Of a stretch of DNA of 61,465 bases, positions 906 to 60,623 are shown piece by piece. Position 1 is the stretch's first letter. Each line of letters begins with the position of its first letter. The translations under genes and the position numbers were made by a program. The DNA lies in assembly GCA_947166155.1 (NCBI GenBank), contig CAMVDC010000001.1:1-61465 (forward strand), given 5' to 3'. This stretch comes from an uncultured Prevotellaceae bacterium (GTDB lineage Bacteria > Bacteroidota > Bacteroidia > Bacteroidales > Bacteroidaceae). The notes below the pieces were generated by a model. It had not been told where the DNA came from. It searched no databases and was given only the letters and a program-made list of their open reading frames with translations.

Positions 906-918
906 AACAACTGTGTAT

Positions 919-1992
919 ATGATACGAACAATTCTCTACTCATTTCTTTTTATGGTCTCTGTCTGTATTAAAGCCCAGCAATTTACCTACACATACGATA
1001 CCATCCGACTTGATTTTGGTAGGCTCGGTTTAGCATCATCTTACTCAACATTGCTGTTCGGGACTGTTTTTCGTGATATGTATTGCTTTGTTGCATTAGG
1101 AAATGATGCTTGCCAATACTTGCTGATGACTGACATGCAGGGAAGGATGTTACACAAAATTAAGGTACCTATAGATACTGAAAACGAAAGGTACATAAGC
1201 GCTTTGCTTACACGCAACGACTCGCTCATCTTGAAGCGTAACAGGGAGTATACTGTCGACTGCTACGAACGTTGGAACTATGAATACGAAGTACTTAACG
1301 GATTGGAACATGAAATCGTGCCGAATGATATGCATGACTATTATCTCGATACGGGGTCATGGGAGATTCGTCCATGCAACACAGCTTTCTCCGCAATATA
1401 TGAAGACCGCAGGTTTGTCGCGCTAAGCATGGCCGCAGGGGAGTTTGGCAGCTGGCTGCTGTTTCAAGAAAAGAAGCATAAGAGACTGCATTTGTTCAGG
1501 GAGGCGACATTCCGTTTGTTTCGTATCGGCAAGAGTTACTATGGGATAAATTGGTATGGGATATTCAAGATTGACAGGCCAGAAAGCGCACCTGTAGTCG
1601 ATGGGAGCGTTCATCATACTGATTATGAATACAAGGCTGAATACTCAAGGGGTAAATACCTATACAAAACAAAGTCAGGAGATACATCTGAAATGATGTC
1701 TACGGAATTTATAGAAGATGGTTTTGTACATGGCAGGAGGCTTTATGTTGTGGTTCGTACGGCAGACGATTTATTTATAGCCAGATATGCAGACAAAAGT
1801 CTAATCCCCATGATGAGTTTAGGACAGCATTTTGCGCAGTGGAGAGTTTTCACGCAATTCAGCATGTCGGACTCAAATCGAGCGCTAATCAAACTATATG
1901 ACCGTGAGCAGCAACAATGTCGGGCACTTGTTTTCATTAACGAATTAAAAGTAAATGTTATATATATTATGTTACAAAACTCATATAAATAA
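919..1992 (+). CDS. hypothetical secreted protein (no family recognised)
   Basis: Uninterrupted ORF. ATG at 919 (the track starts at GTG 913) gives the signal-like N-terminus MIRTILYSFLFMVSVCIKAQQ. It sits between two LRR paralogues. Confidence 0.5.
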   Translation: MIRTILYSFLFMVSVCIKAQQFTYTYDTIRLDFGRLGLASSYSTLLFGTVFRDMYCFVALGNDACQYLLMTDMQGRMLHKIKVPIDTENERYISALLTRNDSLILKRNREYTVDCYERWNYEYEVLNGLEHEIVPNDMHDYYLDTGSWEIRPCNTAFSAIYEDRRFVALSMAAGEFGSWLLFQEKKHKRLHLFREATFRLFRIGKSYYGINWYGIFKIDRPESAPVVDGSVHHTDYEYKAEYSRGKYLYKTKSGDTSEMMSTEFIEDGFVHGRRLYVVVRTADDLFIARYADKSLIPMMSLGQHFAQWRVFTQFSMSDSNRALIKLYDREQQQCRALVFINELKVNVIYIMLQNSYK

Positions 1993-2139
1993 CTTTCATA
2001 AAAAAAGAATATATCATGCTGAAAGTAGAAATACAGTAAATCGGTCGGTTTCATCGGGGAAAATCCGCTTTTAGTTGAGAGATTTCAGGTTATTTAATAA
2101 ATAAACAACAGAATATTTGATTGGTATGACCGAAATGCT

Positions 2140-2147
2140 TATATTTG
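2140..2147 (+). promoter_or_regulatory. Bacteroidota -7 box TATATTTG (TAnnTTTG)
   Basis: Exact consensus match, 165 nt upstream of the LRR gene start at 2312. Confidence 0.4.
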
Positions 2148-2311
2148 CATGCGAATTACCATCAAAACCTAAAATGACATAGCTTATGCATGGACAGCCA
2201 ATACATAAGACAAATCTCCCCCTCGGGAATATGCTTAAGTGCGTATTAAGGGTGCCAATACGTTTATCTATGCCAGTATTTTAATGATGTTTTACTTAAA
2301 TTAACAATACA

Positions 2312-3016
2312 ATGACTTATCAACCCAACCCACATTTTCGGTTACTGTGTTTTGCCATAATCCAATTACTGATACCACTACCAAAGGCATTTTCTCAAAC
2401 TCCCACACTTGCTGGATATGAATTATATAAAACTACAGATAAAGCAAGTACGGCCATGTGGTTTCAAGTTATGATGTTTTCGACTGATAGCGGAGAAATC
2501 CAGAAAGCGTATTTCTGTAAGGAAAACATATTAGCAAAATCGTATAAGGGACTACTGCATATCCCTGGTTCTATAAAAACTGAATTCGGGGCTGTTATCC
2601 CTGTCGAAGGAGTTATTATGGGTGGATGTAGCGACTGTGATGAATTGGATAGTGTATATATTGAATATGGTATTAAAAATATCATACACGAAGCTTTTTC
2701 CGGTTGTATTAATTTACGCGGAATAAGACTGCCACCATCACTTGAATACATCGGAATGAAAGCGTTCGAGGGGTGTACATCACTGAGATGGATTGAGTTG
2801 CCACATCATTTACATACAATACAAGCAGAAGCATTTGCCGATTGCTGCAATATCAGGTATTGCAAAGTAAACTGGCACAAGCCAATAGATATTGGAAGTT
2901 CTGTATTTAAAGGATGTCAATTAAGTGGATGCACCCTTGTCGTTCCGCGCGGCACTCGCCGACTCTATGAGCAAGCCGAGGGCTGGAAGGACTTCGGACA
3001 TATTATTGAAGAATAG
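2312..3016 (+). CDS. BspA-type leucine-rich-repeat (LRR_5-like) protein
   Basis: 234-aa ORF with signal-like N-terminus and LRR units (IHEAFSGCINLRGIRLPPSLEYIGMKAFEGCTSLRWIELPHHLHTIQAEAF). Ends with CTLVVPRGTRRLYEQAEGWKDFGHIIEE, like ORF 21..905. A TATATTTG box lies upstream and a hairpin terminator downstream. Confidence 0.65.
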   Translation: MTYQPNPHFRLLCFAIIQLLIPLPKAFSQTPTLAGYELYKTTDKASTAMWFQVMMFSTDSGEIQKAYFCKENILAKSYKGLLHIPGSIKTEFGAVIPVEGVIMGGCSDCDELDSVYIEYGIKNIIHEAFSGCINLRGIRLPPSLEYIGMKAFEGCTSLRWIELPHHLHTIQAEAFADCCNIRYCKVNWHKPIDIGSSVFKGCQLSGCTLVVPRGTRRLYEQAEGWKDFGHIIEE

Positions 3017-3086
3017 CTATTAATAAAAATGCGTACCTTTGTTCTTGTTATTGATGTTTTGTCGCAAAAACAAAGGTAACAAAGGG

Positions 3087-3123
3087 GGCTGAAACCCGAA
3101 CGAGGATTTCAGCCTATTTTTTT
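3087..3123 (+). terminator. rho-independent terminator
   Basis: GGCTGAAA...TTTCAGCC forms an 8-bp stem, followed by TATTTTTTT, downstream of the LRR gene 2312..3016. Confidence 0.7.
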
Positions 3124-3207
3124 ATATTGCTAAAAAACTTTTACCGGACACCAATAATTTGGTATACTTTTACGTTATCATTTACAGCAACCTAAATATA
3201 AGATAGC

Positions 3208-4812
3208 ATGAAAAGAAGGAATTGTTTTGCACTCCTGGCAATATTAATTGCAACAACTCTGCAAGCCCAGCCTGTGACAGACGTTGACGATGGCCCTGCA
3301 GTATGGGGACAATGGACTGAGTGGGGCGACCAACAGAATGGCCTCTATCGTAACCCCGTCGTTCCGGCTGACTTCAGCGACATCGACTGCATCCGCGTTG
3401 GTGACGATTACTATGCCATTTCATCAACCATGCAGTTTTCGCCTGGTATGACCATACTGCACTCACGAGACTTGGTGAATTGGGAGTATGCCGGTCATGC
3501 CGTCAGTTACCTGACACAAATCAGTTCTGCGCTTTCGTGGCAGGAGATGAATCGTTACGGCAGGGGAGTCTGGGCGGGTACACTTCGTTATCATAAGGGC
3601 AGGTTTTATCTTTACTTCGGTACTCCCGACGAAGGATATTTCATGACCTCGGCCCCCAAGGCCGAAGGACCTTGGGAACCGTTGACTTGCCTGTTGGCAG
3701 ATGACGGGTGGGACGATTGTACCGTCTGTTGGGATGAGCGGGGCAACGGATGGTTCTTTGGCACTTGCTTCAAGGATAACTATAAGACCTTCCGGTTCAA
3801 GATGGCTCGCGATGGTCGAAGCATCGAACACCAGAGTGGAGTTGTCGTGAATGAAGGTAACGGTCGCGAGGCCAACAAAATCATATATCACGATGGCTTC
3901 TACTACCTACTGTTCAGTGAGCACAAGGGTGGAATAGGCCGTTATGTGATGGCTAAACGCGACAGTAAGATAACCGGTAAATTCTCCGAGGAGTGCCAAC
4001 TTCTCCAGCCTTGTACCGAGGCCAACGAGCCTAATCAGGGCGGCATTGTGGAGGGACCTGATGGGCATTGGTATTTCCTTACTCATCATGGATCGGGTGA
4101 CTGGAGCGGAAGGATTATGAGCCTGTTGCCTGTATCGTGGAAGAACGGTTGGCCCATGATTGGCAAGTTGAATGACAGCTCTGAACCTGGCGTGATGGTC
4201 TGGAAAGGTACAATGCCAGCCACACAGAATGCACGGCTCAATTTGCAGCGAAGTGACGATTTCGACACTCCGACACTCGGTGCGCAGTGGCAATGGAACT
4301 ACGAACCACGACGGGAGATGTTTTCCCTGTCCGAGCGTCCAGGGTGGCTCCGCCTCAAGGCTTTCAAGCCTCTTGAATCGCAGAACTTGCTGAAAGTTGG
4401 CAATACGATAACACAACGCTCGTTCCGCACACAAAACAACGAAGTCATTGTCAAACTCGACATCACCCATATTGCTGACGGTCTGCATACTGGCTTGGCT
4501 CATTTCTCTCATGCGTATGGTGCAATCGGTATCTTCAGACATCATGGTCAGAACTATATTGAGACCATCCAAGGCGGTAAGTGGGAAGCCTCTCAGCCTA
4601 TTCAGTCATCCTCTGTATGGCTAAAATCAGTTTGGGGACTCGATGGAATGAGCCGTTTCTATTATAGTACCGACGGCGATACCTTCCTACCATTAGGAAC
4701 CTATCAACTCTCCTGGGGATTCTATCGCGGTGACCGCATCGCAGTTTATTGTTTTAATGAACAGGCAGATACTGGTTATGTCGATGTGGATTATCTACAT
4801 TATTCTTTCTAA
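3208..4812 (+). CDS. glycoside hydrolase family 43 (beta-xylosidase/alpha-L-arabinofuranosidase-like) with C-terminal beta-sandwich
   Basis: Signal peptide MKRRNCFALLAILIATTLQAQ. GH43-type propeller motifs: NPVVPADFSDIDCIRVGDDYYAISST, GVWAGTLRYHKGRFYLYF, EANKIIYHDGFYYLLFSE, NQGGIVEGPDGHWYF. About 200 aa of C-terminal lectin-like domain. Confidence 0.85.
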   Translation: MKRRNCFALLAILIATTLQAQPVTDVDDGPAVWGQWTEWGDQQNGLYRNPVVPADFSDIDCIRVGDDYYAISSTMQFSPGMTILHSRDLVNWEYAGHAVSYLTQISSALSWQEMNRYGRGVWAGTLRYHKGRFYLYFGTPDEGYFMTSAPKAEGPWEPLTCLLADDGWDDCTVCWDERGNGWFFGTCFKDNYKTFRFKMARDGRSIEHQSGVVVNEGNGREANKIIYHDGFYYLLFSEHKGGIGRYVMAKRDSKITGKFSEECQLLQPCTEANEPNQGGIVEGPDGHWYFLTHHGSGDWSGRIMSLLPVSWKNGWPMIGKLNDSSEPGVMVWKGTMPATQNARLNLQRSDDFDTPTLGAQWQWNYEPRREMFSLSERPGWLRLKAFKPLESQNLLKVGNTITQRSFRTQNNEVIVKLDITHIADGLHTGLAHFSHAYGAIGIFRHHGQNYIETIQGGKWEASQPIQSSSVWLKSVWGLDGMSRFYYSTDGDTFLPLGTYQLSWGFYRGDRIAVYCFNEQADTGYVDVDYLHYSF

Positions 4813-7082: not shown

Positions 7083-7141
7083 ACCCTCTGCCTTCTTCCC
7101 CCTCTGTACCCCCCTTCCCCCGTTGGGGGATTGAGGGGGAA
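7083..7141 (+). repeat. C-run/G-run nested hairpin module
   Basis: TTCCCCCTC (7096-7104) pairs with GAGGGGGAA (7133-7141). The inner pair is CCCCC-gtt-GGGGG (7117-7129). It lies directly after the SGNH hydrolase stop. Confidence 0.7.
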
Positions 7142-7216
7142 AAGAACAGTCTTGTAAACATAGTGGATAACACTTATTAAAAAACAACAATTTATAAACA
7201 ACATCTTAAACTTACT

Positions 7217-12709: not shown

Positions 12710-14023
12710 ATGGAATATCTGCTGCATTATACATGGAAGCATCGCCTGTTTCCCTTTGGCGATATGGTCACCACCCACGGCGAGAAGGTCGAGGTGATGA
12801 GTGTCGGTATGCACAATAGCGACGGTGGCCCCGACTTTATCGGTGCGCGGCTGAAGATTGGCGGTGTGGAATGGGCTGGCAATGTAGAGATTCACATGCG
12901 CTCGAGCGACTGGTACCGGCATCATCACGACACCGATGCTGCCTACGACACGGTGGTGTTGCATGTGGTGGGGGAGGCCGATCGCGAGGTATATACACAC
13001 AGCGGTGTATGCCTGCCCCAGCTGGTGTTACGTGTCCCCGACGAGGTGAACGAAAACTATGAGCGGCTGAACCATGCCGACAGTCATCCGCGGTGTCAGG
13101 CCGTGTTGAGGCTGTTGCCCAGGGTCAGTATTACGTCGTGGCTTTCGTCGTTGTGTGTGGAGCGTCTGCACTCACGAGTCGACCAGTTGGATGTGCGCAG
13201 AGGTCAGTTAGGACAGAGTTGGGAAGATGTGGCCTTTGTCACCGTGGCACGCAACTTTGGTTTCGGAAAGAATGGCGATGCATTCGAGCGATGGGCCATG
13301 GCGCTGTCGACCAGCGCTATGAACAAACACCGCGACGACTTGTTTCAGGTCGAGGCACTCTTTTTCGGGACAGCAGGATTGCTGGCAGCCGAGGCTGATG
13401 CCTCCATGCCCGACTACTACCGACGCTTGCAGGCAGAATGGAAATACCTGTCGCGTAAGTTCGGATTGAAACCCATCGACGCCACGGCGTGGCAGTTCCT
13501 GCGTATGCGTCCGCAGAATTTTCCTTACACCCGCATTGCCCAGTTGGCCATGCTCTACCACGACGGATGCCTCGGCATGTCGCGCATAATGGGTGCACAG
13601 AATGTAGAAGAACTAATGCCACTGTTCGACACCTCGCTGAGCCATTTCTGGCAAACCCACTACACATTCTCATCTGAGCCCGTGCGCAGGCGCAGCGGTC
13701 AGCTGTCAGCTGCCTCGAAACGACTCATCATCCTCAATAGCGTGGTTCCACTGCTGTTTGCCTATGGCCGATACCGGTCGGACACCGCTTTGGTCGACCG
13801 TGCCCTCTCGTTGCTCGACGAGTTGCCGGCAGAATCAAACCACATCACACGCCAGTGGCAGCAGGCAGGAGTTGAATGTCGTTCGGCTGCCGACTCGCAA
13901 GCCCTTTACCAACTCACCACCCGATATTGCGAAGCCAAAGACTGCCTGCACTGCCGTTTCGGCCATGAATATATGCGTCAGAACCCGGGGTTTTTGAAGG
14001 AGAAGAGGGAGGACGAAAAATGA
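12710..14023 (+). CDS. DUF2851 family protein
   Basis: ATG 12710 (MEYLLHYTWKHRLFPF...GGPDFIGARLKIGGVEWAGNVEIHMRSSDWYRHHH) matches the characteristic DUF2851 N-terminus. The track ORF starts 33 codons upstream. A TATCTTTG box lies 56 nt upstream. Confidence 0.75.
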   Translation: MEYLLHYTWKHRLFPFGDMVTTHGEKVEVMSVGMHNSDGGPDFIGARLKIGGVEWAGNVEIHMRSSDWYRHHHDTDAAYDTVVLHVVGEADREVYTHSGVCLPQLVLRVPDEVNENYERLNHADSHPRCQAVLRLLPRVSITSWLSSLCVERLHSRVDQLDVRRGQLGQSWEDVAFVTVARNFGFGKNGDAFERWAMALSTSAMNKHRDDLFQVEALFFGTAGLLAAEADASMPDYYRRLQAEWKYLSRKFGLKPIDATAWQFLRMRPQNFPYTRIAQLAMLYHDGCLGMSRIMGAQNVEELMPLFDTSLSHFWQTHYTFSSEPVRRRSGQLSAASKRLIILNSVVPLLFAYGRYRSDTALVDRALSLLDELPAESNHITRQWQQAGVECRSAADSQALYQLTTRYCEAKDCLHCRFGHEYMRQNPGFLKEKREDEK

Positions 14024-14099
14024 GTGCGCACTTTCGGGGCCGAGAGTGCGCACTCGCGGGCCTGTGAGTGCGCACTCGCGAGCCTGCGAGTGCGCACTC
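14022..14099 (+). repeat. array of four exactly 22-bp-phased units, each carrying the 12-bp palindrome GAGTGCGCACTC
   Basis: Units start at 14022, 14044, 14066 and 14088. Three cores are exact and one is 11/12. GC-rich 10-nt spacers. The array starts inside the DUF2851 stop codon and is followed by ATTTTTT. Confidence 0.9.
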
Positions 14100-14107
14100 A
14101 TTTTTTA
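14066..14107 (+). terminator. intrinsic terminator formed by two palindrome cores
   Basis: GAGTGCGCACTC-gcgagcctgc-GAGTGCGCACTC can form a perfect 12-bp stem with a 10-nt loop, followed by ATTTTTT. Confidence 0.65.
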
Positions 14108-14201
14108 GTCAGTCGGCACTATTTTATTTTATAGTGTACGAAAGAGAGTGAAAAAACACAAAATATGTGGTCGGCACGCATTCCGAGTCGGTTTTTTTCG
14201 C

Positions 14202-17320: not shown

Positions 17321-18244
17321 ATGGGCCACCTCTACCGACACATATTGCAACGCCTCACCAGTCACTACTATGCCGACGATCACCGCTCGGCCACAGCCAT
17401 AGCACTTATGTTGCTCGACGAAGTGGCACATCTCGACACAACCCATGTGCTGGCAGGCGACGACGACCATCTCGATGCCGACACCGTGTCCCGTATCAAC
17501 GACATGGCACAACGCCTGGAGCAAGGCGAGCCAGTGCAGTATGTGGTGGGACATACCCAGTTTTGCGGACTCACCATTGATGTCAACCCCTCGGTGCTCA
17601 TACCCCGACCCGAGACCGAAGACCTCGTCAGTTGCATCAACCATCCACATCCCCACCGCATCATCGACCTCGGGACCGGCAGCGGATGCATAGCACTTGC
17701 CCTGAAACACAGGTATCCAGAGGCAGAAGTAACAGCCGCCGACATCTCGGCCGATGCATTGCATACAGCCAGTCGTAATGCCAGCCGCCTGGGCCTGCAA
17801 GTCGGTTTCCGCGAGGCCGACATCCTGAAACTCGACCCCAAGACCCATGAACAGTGGGATGTGATAGTGTCAAACCCACCATACATACATCCCGACGAAT
17901 CGACTGCCATACGCCCACACGTACTCGACCATGAGCCACATTCGGCACTCTTTGTGCCAGCAGCCGACCCACTCATCTTCCATCGCGCCATCATCGGCTA
18001 TGCAGCAGCCACACTCCACCCCCAAGGCGGAGTCGTGGCCCTCGAGGTCAACTGCCGCTATGCATCGCATGTAGCCATGCTCATGCATCAGCATGGCTTG
18101 CAATCAGTGGCTATAGTAGCCGACCGATATGGCCAGCCGCGCATAGTGAGAGGATATAAACCTCCCCTAACCCCTCCCAAGGAAACCTCCCCTAACCCCT
18201 CCCAAGGAGGGGAATTCCATCCGGATGGAAATGGTAAATGGTAA
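17321..18244 (+). CDS. prmC: peptide chain release factor N5-glutamine methyltransferase
   Basis: SAM motif IIDLGTGSGCIALAL and catalytic NPPY (VSNPPYI). The last ~25 codons (PPLTPPKETSPNPSQGGEFHPDGNGKW) are read from an intergenic repeat module, so the native C-terminus is probably shorter. Confidence 0.85.
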   Translation: MGHLYRHILQRLTSHYYADDHRSATAIALMLLDEVAHLDTTHVLAGDDDHLDADTVSRINDMAQRLEQGEPVQYVVGHTQFCGLTIDVNPSVLIPRPETEDLVSCINHPHPHRIIDLGTGSGCIALALKHRYPEAEVTAADISADALHTASRNASRLGLQVGFREADILKLDPKTHEQWDVIVSNPPYIHPDESTAIRPHVLDHEPHSALFVPAADPLIFHRAIIGYAAATLHPQGGVVALEVNCRYASHVAMLMHQHGLQSVAIVADRYGQPRIVRGYKPPLTPPKETSPNPSQGGEFHPDGNGKW

Positions 18245-18306
18245 ATCCGTAAATTGTAAATCCAATAAGTTCCTCCTATCTCCTAAAAAATAAATAGTAA
18301 ATCATA
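18161..18306 (+). repeat. composite intergenic cassette (C-run/G-run hairpins, then CCATCCGGATGG, then GTAAAT words)
   Basis: CCTCCCCTAACCCCTCCCAAGG occurs twice, then GGAGGGGAATTCCATCCGGATGGAA (16-bp palindrome at 18215-18230), then ATGGTAAATGGTAAATCCGTAAATTGTAAATCC...TAAATAGTAAATC. It covers the prmC 3' end and the prmC-recX gap. Confidence 0.8.
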
Positions 18307-22106: not shown

Positions 22107-22107
22107 T

Positions 22108-22262
22108 TTTTATAATGAATAATTTATAATGTTATAATGAATAATGAATAATGAATAATGAATAGCTGATGTCTATCTTCAATCATCTTCATCTATCATC
22201 AATCATCTATCATCTATCATCTATCATTTATCATCAATCATCTATCATCAATCATCAATCAT
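22108..22262 (-). repeat. AATGAATA word repeats plus ATCATCTATC word repeats
   Basis: 22108-22170 reads TATAATGAATAATTTATAATGTTATAATGAATAATGAATAATGAATAGCTGATG. 22170-22262 holds about nine degenerate (C)ATCTATCAT/CAATCAT units. Together they fill the gap between the DUF2752 gene and the antiporter start. Confidence 0.8.
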
Positions 22263-22281
22263 CTTTTATCAATTATGTAGG

Positions 22282-27379: not shown

Positions 27380-27559
27380 CGAAAACATGTAGAAATGAAA
27401 AAATGAAGAAATAAAAAAATGAAGAAATGCAGATGCGAAAGAATGAAAATGCAATGATTTGATAGTTTTGAGGCACAAAAAAACGTGAAAACGCGTGTGC
27501 CGATGCAATAAAAGTCAAAATAATGTGATTAACCTTGCTTGTGTATGAAAAAAAATTAC

Positions 27560-27744: not shown

Positions 27745-27787
27745 CCACGGGAATGGAAACAAACCTCCATTCCCGTGGTTTCGGTTT
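27745..27787 (+). terminator. rho-independent terminator after tRNA-Asn
   Basis: CCACGGGAATGG-aaacaaacct-CCATTCCCGTGG is a perfect 12-bp stem, followed by TTTCGGTTT. Confidence 0.7.
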
Positions 27788-27810: not shown

Positions 27811-28030
27811 CCTCCCCTAACCCCTCTCTTATCTCCCCGAAGGGGAGAGGATGCCATCCGGGGAGAAGACCCCCTCCCCCTGTGGGTACTCCCCCTTTCA
27901 GGTGGGAGAGTCCATCCGGATTGAAATAACTAAATAGTTAAATAGTACATAAATCGTAAATAGTAAATCGTCAAATCGTAAATATTATTTGTTTCCGCTA
28001 TTCATTATTCATTATTAATTATTCATTAAA
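27811..28030 (+). repeat. composite intergenic cassette (complete example)
   Basis: Module order: CCTCCCCTAACCCCTCTC, CTCCCCgaaGGGGAG, CCATCCGG variants (two), TAAATAGTTAAATAGTACATAAATCGTAAATAGTAAATCGTCAAATCGTAAAT, ATTATTTGTTTCCGCTATTCATTATTCATTATTAATTATTCATTAAA, then the dus ATG. Confidence 0.85.
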
Positions 28031-29029: not shown

Positions 29030-29335
29030 GTCTTTACCTGAAAAACCATTCCCGAATAATAATCTGCACCGCCTTGGGGGGGATATCACCCCGAAAAGGC
29101 CGAAAAAGCGCGAACAAACACGGTTTCATCGGCAAAATCAGCACATAGAACGCATGTTTTTGTATGTGTAAATACATGCGGTTTATGCCGTGGGGGGGGG
29201 GATATAAATACATATACAACCAGTTTTCATAAATACGACGGTTTCATCGGTAAAATCAGCCCGATTTGGTAAAAAACGCTCGATGTATTAACACCCGGGG
29301 GGGATATCAGGGGGGATATTTTTCCCCCCCTTTCT
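29030..29335. repeat. degenerate ~118-bp tandem duplication with G-run+ATAT motifs
   Basis: GGGGGG(G)ATAT occurs at about 29075, 29192, 29297 and 29310. CGGTTTCATCGG(C/T)AAAATCAGC occurs at 29120 and 29239, with a related CGGTTTCATCGGGGAAAATC at 2047. Confidence 0.6.
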
Positions 29336-29385
29336 CACGGTGCTTATCAACCCATCTACAGATACCTGTGGAGGGGGCAAAAAAT

Positions 29386-29463
29386 GAGTGCGCACTCGCG
29401 GGGTCGCGAGTGCGCAGTCTCAGGCCCGCGAGTGCGCACTCTCGGCCTTGCGAGTGCGCACTC
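29386..29463 (-). repeat. inverted copy of the 22-bp GAGTGCGCACTC array
   Basis: Units start at 29386, 29408, 29430 and 29452, preceded by AAAAAAT (29379-29385). After reverse-complementing, the spacers align in order with the 14022 array (7/10, 9/10 and 8/10 matches). It lies downstream of the T9SS-CTD relic on the minus strand. Confidence 0.85.
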
Positions 29464-29592
29464 TCTGACGCCCGTTTCGGCGGTCACCTTAAATTCCATG
29501 CCTAAATGTTGTTTTCACTTCACCCACACCTTGGTTTCATCTTGGTGCATCTCGCCGCTCGGCAAATCTCTGGTGCAAGCCTGGATTTGCTC

Positions 29593-29811
29593 TCACTTCA
29601 CCCACACCTTCCTGCCGCCAACTATGTTCAGTCCTCGCTGCGGACGGAGTATGCGCTGACCCTGCAGGTTGTAGATGCGTGCTGGACCACGATAAGGTAC
29701 GGCAGATGTTTGTGTGATGCCGTCAGCGATGTGGTTGGTGTTTACTACCTCATGTTCCTTGCCCAAATGGTCGCGGACTATATAATTCTTGTCGGGGTCG
29801 AACCCCGGTAT
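29593..29811 (-). pseudogene. orphan relic of a T9SS C-terminal sorting domain (3' end of a decayed cargo gene)
   Basis: This minus-strand frame has no start codon and is bounded upstream by TAG. It reads ...ITQTSAVPYRGPARIYNLQGQRILRPQRGLNIVGGRKVWVK*. That aligns with the C-terminus of the 1751-aa protein (ISQVS...VYTISGQRVAAPQRGLNIVDGKKVLVK*). The terminal 18-mer encoding KVWVK* is duplicated 78 bp downstream (29515-29532). Confidence 0.55.
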
Positions 29812-30251
29812 CTACATGTCGGTCTCGTATAACATTTCACAATCATACGCCATCCCTGTTCTGTACAATTGCAATACTATACATGTGGAGTCGGGACTAT
29901 TTGTCGGTTCTTCGTGTACAATTGCATACAACGCGCTGCAAGATACATTGTGTGTTGATTTTTAGCGTTCCACCTTGTTTTACTTCAAAATGATTTTTTA
30001 TTCGTACCCTGCCTTCCGACTTTATTTGAAGGTTGGTACCAGTATTTACAATGACTTGGCCACTGGGTAAATCTGTTGTAGCATCACTCTATTAATACAG
30101 CAGTCGATACTGTTAACAATATCTATTATGTGCAAACATATTGGCATGAAAATGATATATAGATACCTTATTTTCCGCTCTCTGCCTTCCTCTTTCCATC
30201 CAAATAGCACGATTTTTGTGCTTACACCCCTCTCCTTTCATATTATTTAGC

Positions 30252-30259
30252 TATCTTTG
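30252..30259 (+). promoter_or_regulatory. Bacteroidota -7 box TATCTTTG
   Basis: Exact TAnnTTTG, 23 nt upstream of the dapB ATG. Confidence 0.6.
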
Positions 30260-30281
30260 CAACTCAAAACACGCATGAAAT

Positions 30282-30976: not shown

Positions 30977-31140
30977 ACCGGTCCCCCCCTCTTATCCCCC
31001 CAAAGGGGGAAGATGCCATCCGGATGGAAATAACCAAATAATTAAATAGTACATAAATCGTAAATAGTAAATCGTTAAATCGTAAATGAACAAATAAATA
31101 CAAATGGTAAATGGTAAATCTGTAAATAGTAAATGAGATT
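30977..31140 (+). repeat. composite intergenic cassette (dapB-lepB gap)
   Basis: CCCCCCCTCTTATCCCCCCaaaGGGGGAAGATG, then CCATCCGGATGG (31016-31027), then TAAAT words. Positions 31016-31087 are 94% identical (68/72) to 27912-27983. Confidence 0.88.
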
Positions 31141-36995: not shown

Positions 36996-37062
36996 ATAAT
37001 TAATAATTAATAATGAATAGCGGATGCTACGTTAATTAATAATGAATAGCGGATGCTTGAGC
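36991..37062 (+). repeat. two copies of the AATAATGAATAGCGGATGCT word (same family and orientation as 38216-38415)
   Basis: AATGAATAATTAATAATTAATAATGAATAGCGGATGCTACG is followed by TTAATTAATAATGAATAGCGGATGCTTGAGC, directly after the nucleotidyltransferase stop and 42 nt before aepZ. Confidence 0.85.
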
Positions 37063-37103
37063 AATAACAATAATATAAAATATATAATTAATAATATATA
37101 ATT

Positions 37104-38219
37104 ATGACTACACCCATAATTCCTACAATAAAGCGAAATGTGCTGCTCAACCCGGGTCCGGCCACAACGACCGACACTGTGAAGATGGCACAAGTGGTGC
37201 CCGACATCTGTCCGCGCGAAAAGGAATTTGCAGGCCTAATGAAAGGTTTGCGTTCCGACTTGCTGCGCGTGGCACACGCACCGGCCGACCAATTCACTGC
37301 AGTGCTTTTCTGCGGTTCGGGCACTATAAACATCGATATATGTATCAACTCGTTGCTGCCCGAAGGCAAGAAGATTCTGGTGGTGAACAACGGTGCTTAC
37401 AACAGCCGCGCCGTCGAGGTGTGCCAGATGTATCACTTGCCATATATCGACCTGAAGTCGAGTGTGTTTGAGCGGCCTAACCTTGCCGACATAGAACGTA
37501 CGCTCAACGAAAACCCCGATGTGGCTGTGGTGTATTGCTGCCACCACGAGACAGGCACAGGCGTTCTCAACCCCATTCGCGAGATTGGAGCCATGGCACA
37601 TCGGCACGGAGCCATTTTCATAAGCGACACCACATCGACCCTTGGCATGATACCGTTCGACATGGTTGAAGATAATGTCGATTTCTGCATGGCATCAGCA
37701 CAGAAAGGGCTCATGGCCATGTCGGGCTTGTCGTTCATCATTGGCAGGAAAGACATCATCGAAGCATCGAAACACTATCCGACACGCTCATACTACTGCA
37801 ACCTATATATGCAGTACGATTACTTCGAGCGTACCGGCGAGATGCATTTCACCCCACCCGTTCAGACCATCTATGCCACAATCCAGGCACTCAAAGAGTA
37901 TTTTGCCGAGGGCGAGGAAGCCAAGTTTGCCCGCCACCGCCGAGTGTATGAAGCCATACGCCGCGGAGTAGCACGCCTCGGCCTCGAGACAGTCATCGAC
38001 CCCGCCATCGAGTCAGGTCTTGTGGTGTCGGTGAAATACCCCGACGACCCACATTTCTCGTTCGAGCGTGTACACGACTACTGCTACGAACGCGGATTCA
38101 CCATCTATCCTGGCAAGATAAGCACCACCAACACCTTCCGCCTCTGTGCGCTCGGAACCATCGATGTGCAGGACATCGAAGACTTCTTCGTGGTATTTGA
38201 ACAGGCACTGAGGAGTTAA
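37104..38219 (+). CDS. aepZ: 2-aminoethylphosphonate:pyruvate aminotransferase (class V aminotransferase)
   Basis: LLNPGPATTTDTVKMAQVVPDICPREKEF N-terminus and the PLP-lysine region MASAQKGLMAMSGLSF. Located inside the phosphonate gene cluster. Confidence 0.8.
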   Translation: MTTPIIPTIKRNVLLNPGPATTTDTVKMAQVVPDICPREKEFAGLMKGLRSDLLRVAHAPADQFTAVLFCGSGTINIDICINSLLPEGKKILVVNNGAYNSRAVEVCQMYHLPYIDLKSSVFERPNLADIERTLNENPDVAVVYCCHHETGTGVLNPIREIGAMAHRHGAIFISDTTSTLGMIPFDMVEDNVDFCMASAQKGLMAMSGLSFIIGRKDIIEASKHYPTRSYYCNLYMQYDYFERTGEMHFTPPVQTIYATIQALKEYFAEGEEAKFARHRRVYEAIRRGVARLGLETVIDPAIESGLVVSVKYPDDPHFSFERVHDYCYERGFTIYPGKISTTNTFRLCALGTIDVQDIEDFFVVFEQALRS

Positions 38220-38415
38220 TGAATAATTAATAATAATGAATAGCGGATGCTCTTTGTTAATGAATAATTAATAATGAATAGCGGATGCTCTTTGTTAATG
38301 AATAATTAATAATGAATAGCGGATGCTTTTTGTTAATGAATAATTAATAATGAATAGCTGAAGCTCTTTGTTAATGAATAATTAATAGCGGATGCTTGGT
38401 GCACAGCGGATGCTA
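38216..38415 (+). repeat. tandem repeat, 38-bp unit TTAATGAATAATTAATAATGAATAGCGGATGCTCTTTG, ~5 copies
   Basis: Units at 38216 (41 bp), 38257, 38295 and 38333, with a degenerate copy at 38371. The array starts at the aepZ stop codon and ends 28 nt before the licD start. Confidence 0.92.
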
Positions 38416-38442
38416 CTTCAATCCTTCAATTATTCAATATAA

Positions 38443-41226: not shown

Positions 41227-41236
41227 GGGTTGTTTT

Positions 41237-41400
41237 TAATTAATAATGAATAGCGGAGACAAATAATATTTACGATTTAGAAATGGAATAGAACGGACCC
41301 TCTCCCCGGCCCTCCCCCTTTATGGGGAGGGTGTCCATCCGGATGGCTTCCTCTCCCCATAAAGGGGGAGATGCCCAAAGGGCAGAGAGGGTCTGCCCTT
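41237..41400 (-). repeat. composite intergenic cassette (GT2-GT4 gap, minus orientation)
   Basis: Read on the minus strand, the order runs from the GT2 stop through G/C-run hairpins, CCATCCGGATGG (41335-41346), AAATCGTAAATATTATTTGTCTCCGCTATTCATTATTAATTAAAA, to the GT4 ATG. This is the same module order as upstream of dus. Confidence 0.85.
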
Positions 41401-42160: not shown

Positions 42161-42328
42161 CGTCATGCATCTTTTCGATGGCAAAGATAGTAATTATTTC
42201 ACATTCCGACGCTCACAATCACCGATTATTTTGCCAAAGACCTCATATTCCTCGTGCCCATCAGCGGCTTTATCAGCCAAAGCTGATATTTCGGTCGCAT
42301 GCGCCTGGCATCCGACAAAACCCTGAGC

Positions 42329-42634
42329 CTACGCACTAAAAACCTCGCGACTACGCATGAAAAAACTCGCGAGTGCGGAGGAATTCTTTAATTTGCGACG
42401 CAAATTATTAAATTTACGTCGCAGTTTTATTAATTTTCCACCGAAAATTATTAAATTTACGTCGCAAATTAAAGAATTACTCCGCACTCGCAGGCAAATT
42501 AGTCCGCACTCGCAGCAAAATTACTGCGCACTCGCAATAAAACTTAACCGTTCCTTCAATAAAACTTCACCGTTCTTCCAGCAAGACTCTACCTTTCTTT
42601 CAGCAAAACTCACCGTTCTCGCTGCAAAAAGAGG
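42329..42634 (+). repeat. ~14-unit array of 22-bp phased repeats around a 98-bp core bounded by 25-bp inverted repeats (element A)
   Basis: Each unit has an A/T-rich half and a G/C-rich half (CGCACTCG, ACGTCGCA or ACCGTTC types). Core IR arms are AATTCTTTAATTTGCGACGCAAATT (42381-42405) and its complement with one mismatch. The 113-bp segment 42380-42492 is 92% identical to 54321-54433. Confidence 0.9.
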
Positions 42635-43592: not shown

Positions 43593-43800
43593 AGCCCCCC
43601 TAACACCTCCAAAGCCCCCTCCCTGAATAATTGAAAGGAAGTTAAAGGGAAGTAAAAGGGAGTTAAAAGGGAGTTAAAGGGACGATACCTACTCCGAGGC
43701 AACATCCGTCCTTTTAACTTCATAGCGAAGCGATAACTTCTTTTCCATTCCTTTCCATTCCTAAATAGTAAATAGTAAATCTGTAAATAGTAAATAACAA
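43593..43800 (+). repeat. composite intergenic cassette variant with AAGGGAAGTTAA words
   Basis: CCCCCCTAACACCTCCAAAGCCCCCTCCC, then GGAAGTTAAAGGGAAGTAAAAGGGAGTTAAAAGGGAGTTAAAGGGA (the complement of 17272-17320), then TTCCATTCCTTTCCATTCC, then TAAATAGTAAATAGTAAATCTGTAAATAGTAAATAAC. Confidence 0.8.
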
Positions 43801-43801
43801 A

Positions 43802-44977: not shown

Positions 44978-45247
44978 ATGAACATCAAACCATTGGCTGA
45001 CAGAGTAGTCATTCTACCTGCTCCAGCAGAAACCAAGACTCAGGGCGGAATCATCATCCCCGACACAGCAAAAGAGAAACCGCTGCAAGGCGAAGTAGTG
45101 GCAGCCGGAAACGGCACCAAAGACGAGGAAATGGTACTCAAGGTAGGCGACAAAGTGCTCTATGGCAAGTATGCCGGCACCGAACTGGAGTATGAGGGCG
45201 AGAAGTACCTCATCATGCGCCAAAGCGACGTATTAGCTATATTGTAA
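44978..45247 (+). CDS. groES: co-chaperonin GroES
   Basis: [44 protein letters not shown]. Confidence 0.97.
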
Positions 45248-45311
45248 TGGGTAGGTGAGCTTGGAGCATGAGACCTCCGAGTCCTCCGATACTTCTGAGC
45301 ACTCCAAGCAC

Positions 45312-45348
45312 CCGCTATTCATTATTCATTATTAATTATTCATTAAAA
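45312..45348 (+). repeat. CCGCTATTCATTATTCATTATTAATTATTCATTAAAA module upstream of groEL
   Basis: A stretch of 36-37 bp is identical to 27995-28030, which lies directly upstream of the dus start. Confidence 0.9.
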
Positions 45349-45366
45349 ATAAACACATCAACTATC

Positions 45367-47051: not shown

Positions 47052-47103
47052 AGCCACGATGGAATAAACAAACCCTAATGACCGTCGTGGCTTTTCTTTT
47101 TTT
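47052..47103 (+). terminator. rho-independent terminator after groEL
   Basis: AGCCACGATGG...CCGTCGTGGCT forms an 11-bp stem with one G-U pair, followed by TTTTCTTTTTTT. Confidence 0.75.
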
Positions 47104-47146
47104 ACATTTTTTCATCCTTTCATTCTTTCATTAAGATTATATTTCG

Positions 47147-51104: not shown

Positions 51105-51179
51105 CCGCCCCTAACCCCCTCCAAGGAGGGGAACTCCATCCGGATGGCATCATCCCCCCTTGGGGGGATAAGAGGGGGG
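51105..51179. repeat. C-run/G-run hairpin module with CCATCCGGATGG between convergent genes
   Basis: CCGCCCCTAACCCCCTCCAAGGAGGGGAACTCCATCCGGATGGCATCATCCCCCCTTGGGGGGATAAGAGGGGGGC fills the whole gap between the U32 peptidase stop and the stop of the small ORF. Confidence 0.85.
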
Positions 51180-52961: not shown

Positions 52962-53075
52962 GGTCTTGTAATTGAGTTCTTGAGTTTTTGAGTTCTTGAG
53001 TTCTTGAGTTTTTAAGTTCTTTAGTTTTTGCGAGACCTCAAGACCTTACGAGCTCAAGACCTAAAAAAACTTACT
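52962..53075 (-). repeat. GAGTTCTTGAG / CTCAAGACC word repeats
   Basis: TTGAGTTCTTGAGTTTTTGAGTTCTTGAGTTCTTGAGTTTTTAAGTTCTTTAG is followed by the partly complementary GACCTCAAGACCTTACGAGCTCAAGACC. It lies downstream of the Spy-like gene and before its terminator. Confidence 0.75.
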
Positions 53076-57702: not shown

Positions 57703-57800
57703 ATATATATATACAGCTTTCGTAAGTTCTACTTACTTCTGCTTACTCATCCCACCTCCCTCCCCAATAAAAGGAGGGAAGGAGATAAGGTCTGACTTCC

Positions 57801-60540: not shown

Positions 60541-60607
60541 AATCGTATTTACTATTTACAGATTTACAATTTACGATTTAATTCTATTTGTTTTCCATTT
60601 TCCATCT
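60541..60607 (-). repeat. TAAAT/TTCCATT word module in the frdC-frdA gap
   Basis: The minus strand reads AGATGGAAAATGGAAAACAAATAGAATTAAATCGTAAATTGTAAATCTGTAAATAGTAAATACGATT and is followed by the frdA ATG. Confidence 0.8.
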
Positions 60608-60623
60608 GGCGATGGTGTGTTCC

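What the first reader, a model, noticed from the sequence alone, without database searches (positions are those of the whole stretch)
27811..28030. Modular intergenic cassette reused across the window with a fixed module order
Seen: the gaps at 18161-18306, 27811-28030, 30977-31140, 41237-41400 (minus strand), 43593-43800 and 60541-60607 (minus strand) share a module order. The gaps at 7083-7141, 51105-51179 and 57741-57795 carry parts of it. The order, read from the upstream gene's stop towards the downstream gene's start, is as follows. (1) CCCCTAACCCCTCC-type C-runs pairing with G-runs, for example CTCCCCgaaGGGGAG. (2) The palindrome CCATCCGGATGG. (3) (N)GTAAAT / TAAATCG words. (4) Optionally ATTATTTGT(T/C)TCCGCTATTCATTATT...AATTAAAA, ending at the ATG. 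Copies are far more similar than chance allows: 68/72 identity between 27912-27983 and 31016-31087, and 36-37 identical bp between 27995-28030 and 45312-45348. The TAAAT words close all three reading frames within about 16 nt. No transposase is present. Inference: this is a family of non-autonomous composite elements that may supply a terminator-like hairpin, a frame-independent stop trap and an A/U-rich initiation region. I cannot tell from the sequence whether the family has been described.
Basis: partly seen in the sequence, partly recalled or inferred. Interest (0 to 1): 0.65.

Follow-up and report, generated by a model that had tools for sequence, protein, structure and literature searches.

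The report
Mosaic hairpin-and-heptamer intergenic repeats
Between many genes of this uncultured rumen bacterium lies the same small set of repeated DNA pieces, G/C-rich hairpins joined at a 12-base palindrome followed by A/T-rich 7-base repeats that run up to the next start codon. They resemble the REP/BIME repeats of E. coli rather than one jumping cassette, and they probably mark where one gene's message ends and the next gene's translation begins.

Summary
The window is a 61-kb chromosomal stretch of an uncultured rumen Bacteroidales (Prevotellaceae-like). Eight intergenic gaps reuse the same few repeat modules far above chance.

Modules 1 and 2 are halves of a REP/REPIN-like element. G/C-rich hairpin units occur singly or as inverted doublets (-49 and -71 kcal/mol here), joined at the palindrome CCATCCGGATGG. 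The same family occurs in many rumen and human-gut contigs.

Module 3 (TAAAT 7/8-nt arrays) and module 4 (CCGCT + ATTCATT arrays) are A/T-rich leaders. TAAAT arrays end 4-8 nt before start codons, also inside an operon (frdC-frdA) and in related species; module 4 also fills the groES-groEL spacer.

Strains with identical flanking proteins differ by presence, replacement, inversion and copy number of single modules. Breakpoints lie in the A/T arrays, so modules move or convert separately.

The order follows gene polarity: hairpin beside the upstream stop, array beside the downstream start. My best reading is a BIME-like mosaic that punctuates cistrons: an RNA 3' hairpin or terminator plus an unstructured, Shine-Dalgarno-less initiation leader. 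The 'stop trap' is mostly a by-product.

I found no transposase, no Rfam family and no usable expression data.

The parts
18161..18228 (+). Two partial REP-like units (CCTCCCCTAACCCCTCCC AAGG AGGGG) followed by the core palindrome CCATCCGGATGG (18217-18228). This is a half form. It overlaps the 3' end of the prmC ORF (17321-18244).
   Evidence: (family D5)
18229..18306 (+). TAAAT 7/8-nt word arrays that start directly at the core, upstream of recX (ATG at 18326). The first TAA is the stop of the extended prmC ORF.
27811..27923 (+). Chain of REP-like units after tRNA-Asn and its canonical terminator (27745-27778). It consists of a unit at 27811-27853, a truncated core CCATCCGG at 27854-27861, a second unit at 27862-27911, and the core variant CCATCCGGATTG at 27912-27923.
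27924..27983 (+). TAAAT block. Together with the core it forms the 72-nt segment that is 68/72 identical to 31016-31087. This core + block is present or absent independently at the dus and lepB gaps in different strains.
   Evidence: (D13)
27984..28030 (+). ATTATTTGT (a near match to the Bacteroidetes -7 box TAnnTTTG) followed by the leader CCGCT(ATTCATT)n, which ends at the dus ATG (28031).
   Evidence: (D9, I10)
30982..31027 (+). REP-like unit (TCCCCCCCTCTTATCCCCCCAAAGGGGGAAGATG) plus the core at 31016-31027, 7 nt after the dapB stop. This is a half form. In strains L003-L009 a different hairpin and the variant core CCCTCCGGAAGG replace it.
   Evidence: (I8)
31028..31140 (+). TAAAT arrays. 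The last unit ends 6 nt before the lepB ATG. The leader is 85% identical over 59 nt to the frdA leader, right up to the ATG. The copy number of GGTAAAT varies between strains.
   Evidence: (I5)
41296..41393 (-). Full REP doublet: two inverted hairpin units around the core at 41335-41346. It folds to -71 kcal/mol (z = -5.8) and lies about 35 nt after the stop of the 41430-42170 gene.
41227..41289 (-). A short TAAAT word pair, then ATTATTTGT, then the CCGCTATTCATT leader, ending at the glycosyltransferase start (41226). It is 95% identical over 42 nt to the dus leader.
   Evidence: (I10)
43593..43801 (+). C-run REP remnants (43594-43625) without a palindrome, then 11-nt repeats (43634-43682), then a TAAAT array (43755-43796) that ends 6 nt before a GTG start (43802).
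45309..45366 (+). CCGCT(ATTCATT)n leader inside the groES-groEL spacer (groES 44978-45247; groEL starts at 45367). It is 37/37 identical to the dus copy.
   Evidence: (D9)
51105..51179 (.). Full REP doublet around the core at 51136-51147, between the convergent genes U32 peptidase (+) and cysS (-). It starts at the base after the stop codon and folds to -49 kcal/mol (z = -3.5).
   Evidence: (I8)
60541..60623 (-). frdC-frdA intercistronic spacer: a degenerate core (CCATCGCCAGATGG) plus a TAAAT array ending 6 nt before the frdA ATG. This is the 'empty' allele. Other strains carry a 68-nt REP + core insert here.
7083..7150 (+). REP-like hairpin without a core, starting at the stop codon of the GDSL lipase gene.
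   Evidence: z = -2.8
57735..57800 (-). REP-like hairpin without a core, about 10 nt after the frdB stop. A separate canonical hairpin + T-run terminator follows it.
   Evidence: z = -3.0
22107..22171 (-). CAGCT(ATTCATT)n leader upstream of the Na/Ca exchanger gene (start 22106), in the same orientation as the gene. A (TGATAGA)13 array precedes it.
36996..37060 (-). Two CCGCTATTCATT copies that are antisense to the flanking + strand genes. They contradict a fixed orientation for module 4.
38215..38401 (-). A 38-nt tandem array (4.5 copies) built from the CCGCTATTCATT module, antisense to the flanking + strand genes.
   Evidence: (D3)

Best explanation
The 'cassette' is a mosaic of at least three separate repeat families that share the intergenic space of this genome. 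It resembles the bacterial interspersed mosaic elements (BIMEs) of E. coli.

(a) REP/REPIN-like elements. These are G/C-rich hairpin units of several subtypes. They occur singly or as inverted doublets that fold into one long hairpin with the 12-bp palindrome CCATCCGGATGG at the apex. They sit directly after stop codons and between convergent genes.

(b) Arrays of TAAATNG/TAAATNNG words. They begin at or near the palindrome and end 4-8 nt before the next start codon.

(c) A CCGCT + (ATTCATT)n leader. In two gaps it is preceded by ATTATTTGT, a near match to the Bacteroidetes -7 promoter box.

Shown here: the anatomy, the copy excess, the position rules, the occurrence in other species and the strain polymorphism.

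Inferred, on the RNA: the hairpins end or protect the upstream message. Doublets would act as strong, orientation-independent terminators. Single units would act as weak 3' hairpins, which are tolerated inside operons. The A/U-rich arrays would keep the start-codon region unstructured, as Shine-Dalgarno-less Bacteroidetes initiation requires.

Inferred, on spread: modules are copied between gaps piecewise. The routes would be recombination or gene conversion that uses the dispersed A/T arrays as homology, plus slippage within arrays. A dedicated transposase for the hairpin units is possible but was not seen.

On this reading, the constant order is a consequence of gene polarity, not of one element moving as a block.
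For: Anatomy and excess.

Doublets:
- They fold at -71 and -49 kcal/mol, with z = -5.8 and -3.5.
- Thirty non-redundant doublets from metagenomes fold at -46 to -87 kcal/mol. Pairs between the two arms are kept, and 6 of 21 pairs show changes on both sides.
- Flanks are A-rich before the element (0.43) and T-rich after it (0.48).

Family beyond this species:
- 115 hairpin-bearing core sites lie in contigs of GC 0.38-0.58 from rumen and human gut.
- A covariance model finds the same hairpin units with other spacers in 6 of 80 related-species loci.

Position:
- All 8 hairpin elements in the window lie 0-77 nt after an upstream 3' end, and none lies in the three divergent gaps.
- TAAAT arrays are co-oriented with the downstream gene in 6 of 6 cases.
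- The array end lies 4-8 nt before the start for lepB, frdA, an ispF-like gene, the L170 and L171 genes and the 43802 gene.
- Contig loose ends after the array read GAATATG and TAATATG.
- The same arrays stand before groEL in two other species.

Operon context:
- Cassettes occur in the frdC-frdA and groES-groEL spacers.
- None of the cassette-preceded genes has a TAnnTTTG box. Several neighbouring genes have one 4-25 nt from their start, and frdC has one 61 nt upstream.

Piecewise mobility:
- The dapB-lepB gap is 167 nt in some strains and 83-91 nt in others.
- In the tRNA-dus gap the hairpin unit is inverted and the arrays are absent in L001/L002.
- The core + 72-nt block is present at both gaps, only at lepB, or only at dus, depending on the strain.
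- A 68-nt hairpin + core insert is present or absent in the frdC-frdA spacer, with FrdA 100% identical.
- Breakpoints fall in AAAT and ATTCATT words.

Copy number: repeats reach tens to more than 100 times unique depth.

Background: Bacteroidetes lack Shine-Dalgarno use and show low GC before start codons (PMC3155529, PMC6847099).
Against: - There is no direct expression evidence. The only RNA data are assembled contigs that break at repeats, so no 5' or 3' ends could be read.
- Single hairpin units fold no better than shuffled sequence (z = -0.2 and +1.1), so a role as terminator or stabiliser is weak for half forms.
- Canonical hairpin + T-run terminators exist separately (27745-27778, and downstream of frdB). 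The REP-like hairpins may therefore be selfish passengers.
- In many species the arrays begin 0-12 nt from the palindrome, with different words. Independent families plus gene polarity do not fully explain this.
- Leaders are identical right up to the ATG at non-homologous genes, which is hard to obtain by untargeted recombination alone.
- Seven antisense copies of module 4 have no leader role.
- The direction of each polymorphism (gain or loss) is not known.
Confidence: 0.55

Rival explanations
1. One reading: one non-autonomous composite element (hairpin, palindrome, word array, leader) transposes as a unit and lands between a stop and a start codon.
For: - The same order occurs in five gaps of the window.
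- Among half forms in other species, the hairpin side faces a 3' end and the array side a 5' end in 15 cases. The reverse holds in about 4 independent cases.
- In each genome the arrays abutting the core use one word, here TAAAT.
- BrickBuilt of P. gingivalis is a precedent for a MITE-like element that carries an internal tandem repeat (PMC4596501).
Against: - Strain alleles differ by single modules and never by the whole block.
- The 68-nt frd insert has no target-site duplication and no terminal inverted repeats.
- Doublets occur without arrays, and arrays without hairpins.
- Module 4 also occurs antisense.
- There is no transposase in the window.
Confidence: 0.1
2. The hairpin + palindrome part is a true REPIN family copied by a single-copy RAYT (TnpA_REP, HUH/Y1) transposase encoded elsewhere in the genome. 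The arrays are unrelated microsatellites.
For: - The architecture is that of a REPIN: two inverted, imperfectly palindromic units with a spacer that fold into a long hairpin, plus decayed singlets.
- There is presence/absence polymorphism.
- TnpA_REP subclasses 2.4 and 2.6 are reported in Bacteroidetes, flanked by 'atypical secondary structures' (PMC6006769).
Against: - No ORF with HUH and Y motifs was found in the window or in about 210 fetched loci, although that search had low power.
- There is no conserved GTAG or CGTC tetranucleotide at the hairpin foot.
- ORFs bracketed by two elements are ordinary genes.
- This reading does not explain why arrays start at the palindrome.
Confidence: 0.25
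3. The 12-bp palindrome is a protein recognition site, for a site-specific recombinase, a nuclease or a nucleoid protein. It would join and exchange hairpin units and arrays, so that the gaps are assembled by cassette exchange at the core.
For: - The same exact core joins at least four different hairpin subtypes and many different heptamer arrays across species.
- Cores bracket segments at 27854-27923, and in L136, L170 and L198.
- A hairpin unit is inverted relative to the core between strains.
Against: - Allele breakpoints map to the A/T words and to the stop codon, not to the core.
- Related species carry the same hairpin doublets with unrelated spacers.
- The search pattern required the exact core, so its apparent invariance is partly by construction.
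- The core decays in several copies.
Confidence: 0.1
4. Nothing is mobile or copied. The similarity reflects independent selection for the same terminator, promoter and leader signals.
For: - The position rules are what function alone would predict.
- TAAAT arrays precede groEL in two other species.
Against: - Identities of 37/37, 68/72 and 42 nt at 95% between non-homologous genes are far beyond any signal consensus.
- Strains with identical proteins show presence/absence and replacement alleles.
- Antisense copies exist.
Confidence: 0.04

Closest known systems
REP sequences and BIMEs (bacterial interspersed mosaic elements) of E. coli and other enterobacteria
   Same: - Short, imperfectly palindromic extragenic units, in alternating orientation.
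- They are combined with other conserved motifs in a set order. In BIME-1/RIP the central motif between two inverted REPs is a protein (IHF) site.
- They are located after stop codons, between cistrons of operons and between convergent genes.
- They are proposed to act as mRNA 3' stabilisers and terminators.

The BIME anatomy and the report that REPs within about 15 nt of a stop codon reduce expression of the upstream gene (Liang, Rudd and Deutscher 2015) are from my own knowledge.
   Different: - The sequences are unrelated, built from C-runs and G-runs.
- There is a 12-bp perfect palindrome at the centre.
- The host phylum is different.
- The units are directly coupled to 7-nt tandem arrays that reach the next start codon.
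- No binding protein is known.
REPINs mobilised by RAYT transposases (Pseudomonas, Enterobacteria; PMC3116915, PMC3337134)
   Same: - Doublets of inverted REP units with a spacer form a long hairpin.
- Singlets occur as decayed forms.
- There are many copies per genome.
- The families are lineage-restricted.
   Different: - No RAYT was found.
- There is no GTAG or CGTC tag (PMC3733652 describes these tags).
- Several hairpin subtypes share one apex motif.
BrickBuilt MITE-like element of Porphyromonas gingivalis (PMC4596501)
   Same: - It is a Bacteroidales element found only in intergenic DNA.
- Flanking leader and tail pieces enclose a tandem repeat whose copy number varies.
- It influences neighbouring transcription.
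   Different: - BrickBuilt has 23-nt repeats, IS5-like terminal inverted repeats and 19 copies.
- Here the repeats are 7/8 nt, no terminal inverted repeats were found, and the hairpin part is a REP-like palindrome.
- I did not test sequence homology with BrickBuilt.
- The 22-nt GAGTGCGCACTC arrays elsewhere in the window are the closer analogue of BrickBuilt.
Reused or 'mobile' promoters and upstream regions of prokaryotes (PMC3575422)
   Same: Near-identical upstream regions stand in front of non-homologous genes within one genome.
   Different: - Here the reused piece reaches the ATG.
- It also occurs inside operons, without a recognisable -7 box.
- It therefore looks like a translation leader rather than a promoter.
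A/U-rich, Shine-Dalgarno-less initiation regions of Bacteroidetes (PMC3155529, PMC6847099)
   Same: A low-GC, unstructured region directly upstream of start codons, with A at -3 and -6 in the leader ends GATTATG and AAAATG.
   Different: Here the region is built from a repeated word array that is shared between genes and polymorphic in copy number.

Membership tests
REP / REPIN | Short, imperfectly palindromic units repeated many times in extragenic DNA | tested here: met
   Hairpin units lie at 8 gaps in 61 kb, all of them extragenic or overlapping a stop codon. Their depth in DNA metagenomes is 8-40 times that of unique DNA.
REP / REPIN | Inverted doublets that fold into one long hairpin | tested here: met
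   The two window doublets have z = -5.8 and -3.5. Thirty metagenome doublets fold at -46 to -87 kcal/mol, and pairs between the arms are kept.
REP / REPIN | Conserved GTAG or CGTC tetranucleotide at the foot of the hairpin | tested here: not met
   The alignment of 30 doublets shows no such invariant tag. The invariant columns are the core palindrome and the C/G runs.
REP / REPIN | A cognate single-copy RAYT (Y1/HUH) gene flanked by the units | tested here: inconclusive
   No HUH...Y ORF was found in the window or in about 210 fetched loci. There is no transposase Pfam hit in the window. The whole genome was not available, so the search has low power.
BIME-type mosaic | Palindromic units combined with other conserved motifs in a recurrent order | tested here: met
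   The order hairpin, core, word array holds in 4 window gaps. In 15 cross-species half forms against about 4 the hairpin faces a 3' end. Chains of units joined by cores occur at 27811-27923 and in L170.
BIME-type mosaic | The central motif is bound by a host protein (IHF, gyrase) | not testable with these tools
   This needs binding assays with the 12-bp palindrome.
MITE | Terminal inverted repeats and a target-site duplication around a defined insert | tested here: not met
   The 68-nt insert in the frdC-frdA spacer has neither. Its borders lie in AAATGGAAAA and AAATGAG words. The other alleles are replacements, not clean insertions.
Intrinsic (rho-independent) terminator | A stable G/C-rich hairpin followed by a U-run | tested here: inconclusive
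   Doublets are very stable, and their flanks are A-rich before and T-rich after (0.43 and 0.48). Clean T-runs are rare. Single units are no more stable than shuffles. Separate canonical terminators exist. No 3'-end data were available.
Bacteroidetes sigma-AB promoter | A -7 box TAnnTTTG at a suitable distance from the gene | tested here: not met
   No TAnnTTTG lies upstream of any cassette-preceded gene. The dus and glycosyltransferase leaders have ATTATTTG, with 2 mismatches or a 3-nt spacer. In the related species of L020, arrays do sit directly before perfect boxes.
Rfam RNA families | A match at the gathering score to a curated family | tested here: not met
   Only tRNA-Asn reaches threshold. 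The weak hits on the hairpins are to miRNA models far below threshold.

The most novel reading that the evidence does not exclude
Hairpin unit, CCATCCGGATGG and a lineage-specific heptamer array together form one self-propagating 'intercistronic punctuation' element of rumen and gut Prevotellaceae. The palindrome would be the recognition or seeding site of an unknown enzyme. The element would install, in one step, a 3' hairpin for the upstream gene and a ready-made Shine-Dalgarno-less translation leader a few bases before the start codon of the downstream gene. The host would then have come to depend on mobile DNA for its translation initiation regions.
Probability: 0.15. Interest if true: 0.75.

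Novelty: new variant of a known kind. Interest (0 to 1): 0.45.

Why it matters
- Interspersed palindromic repeats are well studied in Proteobacteria and hardly at all in Bacteroidales, which dominate gut and rumen communities.
- This family is abundant, spread over many uncultured Prevotellaceae-like species, and variable between co-existing strains. It is therefore a source of strain markers and of assembly breaks in metagenomes.
- The leaders reused up to the ATG offer a natural set of portable Shine-Dalgarno-less initiation regions. Such regions are of practical use for expression tools in Prevotella and Bacteroides, and for testing how these ribosomes choose start codons.
- If the palindrome proves to be an enzyme site, it would define a new way of building intergenic regions.

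Tried and rejected
- Rfam at gathering and at E <= 1 gave nothing but tRNA and sub-threshold miRNA hairpin hits.
- The sigma-70 promoter and terminator scan is not informative for Bacteroidetes. It only pointed to the canonical terminator after tRNA-Asn.
- For RNA evidence, 14 runs are labelled RNA (metatranscriptomes). All are kept only as assembled contigs, which break at the repeats and pile up depth from all copies, so no transcript ends could be read.
- Exact-protein look-ups failed for the U32 peptidase, the glycosyltransferase and cysS, probably because gene starts were called differently.
- A regular-expression search for RAYT/IS200-like HUH...Y ORFs in all fetched DNA found none. ORFs bracketed by two elements are ordinary genes.
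- The viral contig scan gave four hits. Three are chance and one (L221) is a half form with an adjacent tandem-repeat array. There is no sign of a phage origin.
- For literature, no paper holds the core sequence in this context. The held supplementary alignments of the human-microbiome structured-RNA survey do not contain it. That survey's 80-bp palindromic Bacteroidetes candidate HMP2_1065 could not be compared.
- I considered and dropped the following: a telomere-like CCCTAA meaning of the C-runs, a restriction-site or DNA-uptake-sequence reading of the palindrome (there is no excess inside genes), CRISPR, integron attC, and assembly artefact. Artefact is excluded because the elements recur in independent assemblies from several studies.
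Full report
**Source and setting**

The window is ordinary chromosomal DNA with housekeeping genes. They include prmC, recX, comEC, ruvB, tRNA-Asn, dus, dapB, lepB, a glycan/phosphonate cluster, groES-groEL, mutS, cysS and frdCAB.

Contigs that encode exactly the same Dus or FrdA protein come from sheep and cattle rumen metagenomes. The organism is therefore an uncultured rumen Bacteroidales, Prevotellaceae-like. No ORF in the window is a transposase or recombinase.

**Check of the observation**

- CCATCCGGATGG is exact at four intergenic sites and off by one base at a fifth.
- GTAAATNGTAAAT has 18 hits against 0.15 expected.
- CCGCTATTCATTATT has 11 hits against 0.08 expected.
- The quoted identities are correct: 68/72 and 37/37.

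With a corrected gene map, the order hairpin, palindrome, TAAAT words, optional ATTATTTGT/CCGCTATTCATT holds in four gaps, read from upstream stop to downstream start. It also holds, without the palindrome, in a fifth.

Several details do not hold.
- Seven copies of the CCGCTATTCATT module are antisense to their neighbours (36996-37103 and 38220-38442).
- The prmC ORF runs through the first element and stops in the first TAAAT word.
- All three frames are closed within 14-22 nt at only three of six arrays.

**What modules 1 and 2 are**

A scan of public metagenome contigs for C-run/G-run hairpin + CCATCCGGATGG returned 120 stretches and stopped at its limit. Twenty core sites lie in high-GC contigs; those I looked at lie in what looks like coding DNA, and I take them as chance hits. 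The rest, in contigs of GC 0.38-0.58 from rumen and human gut, show one recurrent anatomy.
- 41 sites are doublets: a hairpin unit, the palindrome and an inverted copy of a hairpin unit. An example is GCCCCCTCCCGTCCTCCCCGAGGGGAGGAGAATG CCATCCGGATGG CTTCCCTCCCCCTCGGGGGAGTTGGAGGGGGGC.
- 74 sites are half forms, with a unit on one side only.

Doublets fold into a single long hairpin with the palindrome at the apex. Thirty non-redundant doublets fold at -46 to -87 kcal/mol. The consensus fold keeps the pairs between the arms, and six of 21 pairs show changes on both sides. The loops of the two units are reverse complements of each other, so the whole element is dyad-symmetric, not just each unit.

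The window's own doublets are 41296-41393 (z = -5.8) and 51105-51179 (z = -3.5). The window's half forms fold no better than shuffled sequence.

There are at least four unit subtypes: GCCCCCTCC..CTCCCCC; GACCCTCTCT-GCCCnnnGGGC-..; CCCCTAACCCCTCC-AAGG; and CCCCTCTTATCCCCCC. All are joined to the same core. One subtype carries an extra small stem whose pairs covary between contigs.

A covariance model built from the doublets finds the same units with other spacers in 6 of 80 loci from related species. The hairpin unit is therefore more widespread than the exact core.

This is the anatomy of REP sequences, REPIN doublets and BIME mosaics. The conserved GTAG/CGTC tag of classical REPs is absent, and no RAYT gene was found, although the search for one had little power. 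RAYT-type genes with 'atypical' flanking structures are reported for Bacteroidetes (PMC6006769).

**Where the hairpin elements sit**

All eight hairpin elements in the window lie after the 3' end of the upstream gene.
- Three sit 0-2 nt after the stop codon (7083, 43594, 51105).
- Two are 7-12 nt away (dapB, frdB).
- One overlaps the ORF end (prmC).
- One is about 35 nt away (the 41430 gene).
- One is 77 nt after tRNA-Asn, behind that gene's own canonical terminator.

None lies in the three divergent gaps, which are among the longest. Across metagenome doublets the ten bases before the element are A-rich (0.43) and the ten after it T-rich (0.48). That is the look of a bidirectional terminator.

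**What modules 3 and 4 are**

TAAAT arrays are co-oriented with the downstream gene in six of six cases. Their last unit ends 4-8 nt before the start codon of lepB, frdA, an ispF-like gene, two further genes on other contigs and the 43802 gene.

In DNA metagenomes, at least 10-14 different contigs join each side of the array at 43762-43796. The sequences that follow read GAATATG or TAATATG.

The array also lies inside the frdCAB operon. The CCGCT(ATTCATT)n module lies inside groES-groEL. Similar arrays stand before groEL in two other species, and after hairpin units in two more.

Canonical Bacteroidetes -7 boxes (TAnnTTTG) occur 4-25 nt before the starts of dapB, the 41430 gene, the 42822 gene, mutS, cysS and the 55523 gene, and 61 nt before frdC. 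None occurs before any gene that is preceded by a cassette. The cassettes therefore sit mostly between co-directional cistrons whose upstream partner owns the promoter.

Only the dus and glycosyltransferase leaders carry ATTATTTGT, a near -7 box. These are the two gaps with a strong upstream hairpin. This is an inference, not a demonstration of promoter activity.

Given that Bacteroidetes do not use Shine-Dalgarno pairing and need low-GC, unstructured start regions (PMC3155529, PMC6847099), the arrays are best read as translation leaders. They would also space the start codon away from a G/C-rich hairpin.

**Strain comparisons**

All of these comparisons involve 100% identical flanking proteins.

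1. The dapB-lepB gap is 167 nt in the window and in L002. In seven other assemblies it is 83-91 nt. There, a different hairpin and the variant core CCCTCCGGAAGG replace the unit from the stop codon onward, and a 56-nt TAAAT block is missing.
2. In the tRNA-dus gap, L001 and L002 carry the same hairpin unit inverted, on the other side of the core. They have no TAAAT array and no CCGCT module.
3. The core + 72-nt TAAAT block is at both gaps in the window, only at lepB in L002, and at the dus gap but not at lepB in L003, L007 and L008.
4. The frdC-frdA spacer is 82-83 nt in four assemblies and 150 nt in four others. The difference is a 68-nt hairpin + degenerate core + short A-rich tail, with no target duplication. 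A ninth assembly adds an unrelated 74-nt insert inside the array.
5. Unit numbers of GGTAAAT and ATTCATT vary, as do those of the 19-nt minisatellite after frdB.

Breakpoints fall in AAAT/ATTCATT words or at the stop codon, not in the core. Modules thus change one at a time. This argues against a single composite transposon. It argues for recombination, conversion and slippage among dispersed repeats, possibly together with a dedicated mobilising enzyme for the hairpin units.

**What remains unexplained**

In half forms from many species the tandem array begins 0-12 nt from the palindrome. Period 7 dominates. The word differs by lineage: TAAATNG here, and TGTACTC, CGTTAAA, GACTTTT, GAAACTT, ATTCTAC and GTAAGAN elsewhere.

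With crude gene calls, the hairpin side faces a 3' end and the array side a 5' end in 15 cases. The reverse holds in about 4 independent cases.

Gene polarity explains the order. It does not explain the tight junction at the core, nor why leaders are identical right up to the ATG. This leaves room for the more novel reading, that hairpin, core and array form one propagating unit with the palindrome as an enzyme site. I rate that at about 0.15.

**Verdict**

Its interpretation needs correcting.

It is a BIME/REPIN-like mosaic of separate repeat families in a rumen Prevotellaceae-like lineage. Its probable roles are as an RNA 3' hairpin or terminator and as a Shine-Dalgarno-less initiation leader. 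It is not one cassette with a fixed order, and the stop trap is largely a by-product.

I found no description of this family in the searchable literature or in Rfam. I file it as a new variant of a known kind, of moderate interest. Function rests on position and analogy, and the expression experiments that would settle it are listed under next steps.

Noticed in passing
window 14011-14121, 29353-29485, 42317-42619, 54214-54483: A second, unrelated repeat family. It consists of 21-22-nt tandem units, most built around GAGTGCGCACTC or CGCACTCGC, bracketed by A-runs and T-runs, with the four sites partly inverted relative to each other. In DNA metagenome contigs this family reaches about 650-1090x, against about 7-9x for unique DNA, which is among the highest depths seen in the stretch laid (the TAAAT array bin 43689-43795 reaches 1484x in run X10). 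It resembles the BrickBuilt minisatellite/MITE of P. gingivalis in layout.
   Followed up: partly
window 57551-57665; L211-L217: A 19-nt minisatellite (GTGTATGRAGTTGTTGYTT on the frd strand) lies downstream of frdB. It has from 1 to about 7 copies in different strains that encode an identical FrdA.
   Followed up: partly
L216 about 2410-2483 (frdC-frdA spacer); same start also in L162: A 74-nt insert (GAACCTTTTGGAGCAGCGAGTGC...GCGAACTAAGT) sits inside the TAAAT array in one strain, between two TAAAT words. It may be another small mobile element that targets the arrays.
   Followed up: no
window 17321-18244: The prmC ORF has no stop of its own before the repeat. It reads about 27 codons through the hairpin units and the palindrome and stops at the first TAA of the TAAAT array. 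In L001 the called product is 299 aa, against 307 aa here.
   Followed up: partly
window 22172-22264, 27381-27429, 47093-47132, 52972-53030, 61350-61383: Many other intergenic gaps are filled with their own 7-, 8- or 12-nt tandem arrays: TCTATCA x13, GAAAAAAT x6, TTTCATTC x5, TTGAGTTC x7 and a 12-nt TTTTGTTTTTAA unit x2.8. Short-period arrays seem to be a general habit of intergenic DNA in this lineage.
   Followed up: no
window: upstream of 30282, 42170(-), 42822, 47180, 52858(-), 56308(-): Perfect Bacteroidetes -7 boxes (mostly TATCTTTG) lie only 4-25 nt before start codons. This implies very short leaders or leaderless mRNAs for these genes.
   Followed up: no
window 55438-55529: A 24-nt tandem repeat (GATGCTGGTGGTTTTATCCCTTTG x3.8, 97% matches) lies inside the 5' end of the long ORF called for the D-Ala-D-Ala carboxypeptidase (54517-55536, minus strand). 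Either it encodes an 8-residue protein repeat, or the true start is further downstream.
   Followed up: no
window 29030-30281: A 1.25-kb stretch between dus and dapB has no convincing gene. Assemblies call small 63-108-aa ORFs on either strand there, without Pfam hits. It contains one of the 22-nt repeat arrays and a 23-nt direct repeat (29120 and 29238).
   Followed up: no
window 1-4000: The first 4 kb have a lower GC (0.42 against about 0.52). They encode BspA-type leucine-rich-repeat proteins and a GH43 enzyme, which may be a region of different origin.
   Followed up: no
L118, L135, L143, L144, L152, L165, L169, L173, L179, L185, L197: One locus of a human-gut Bacteroidales species recurs in many independent assemblies. 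It carries the same core palindrome between two different hairpins, followed by a canonical terminator (GGAGCTGCAAA...TTTGCAGCTCC GTTTTT). The core motif is therefore not confined to the rumen.
   Followed up: no
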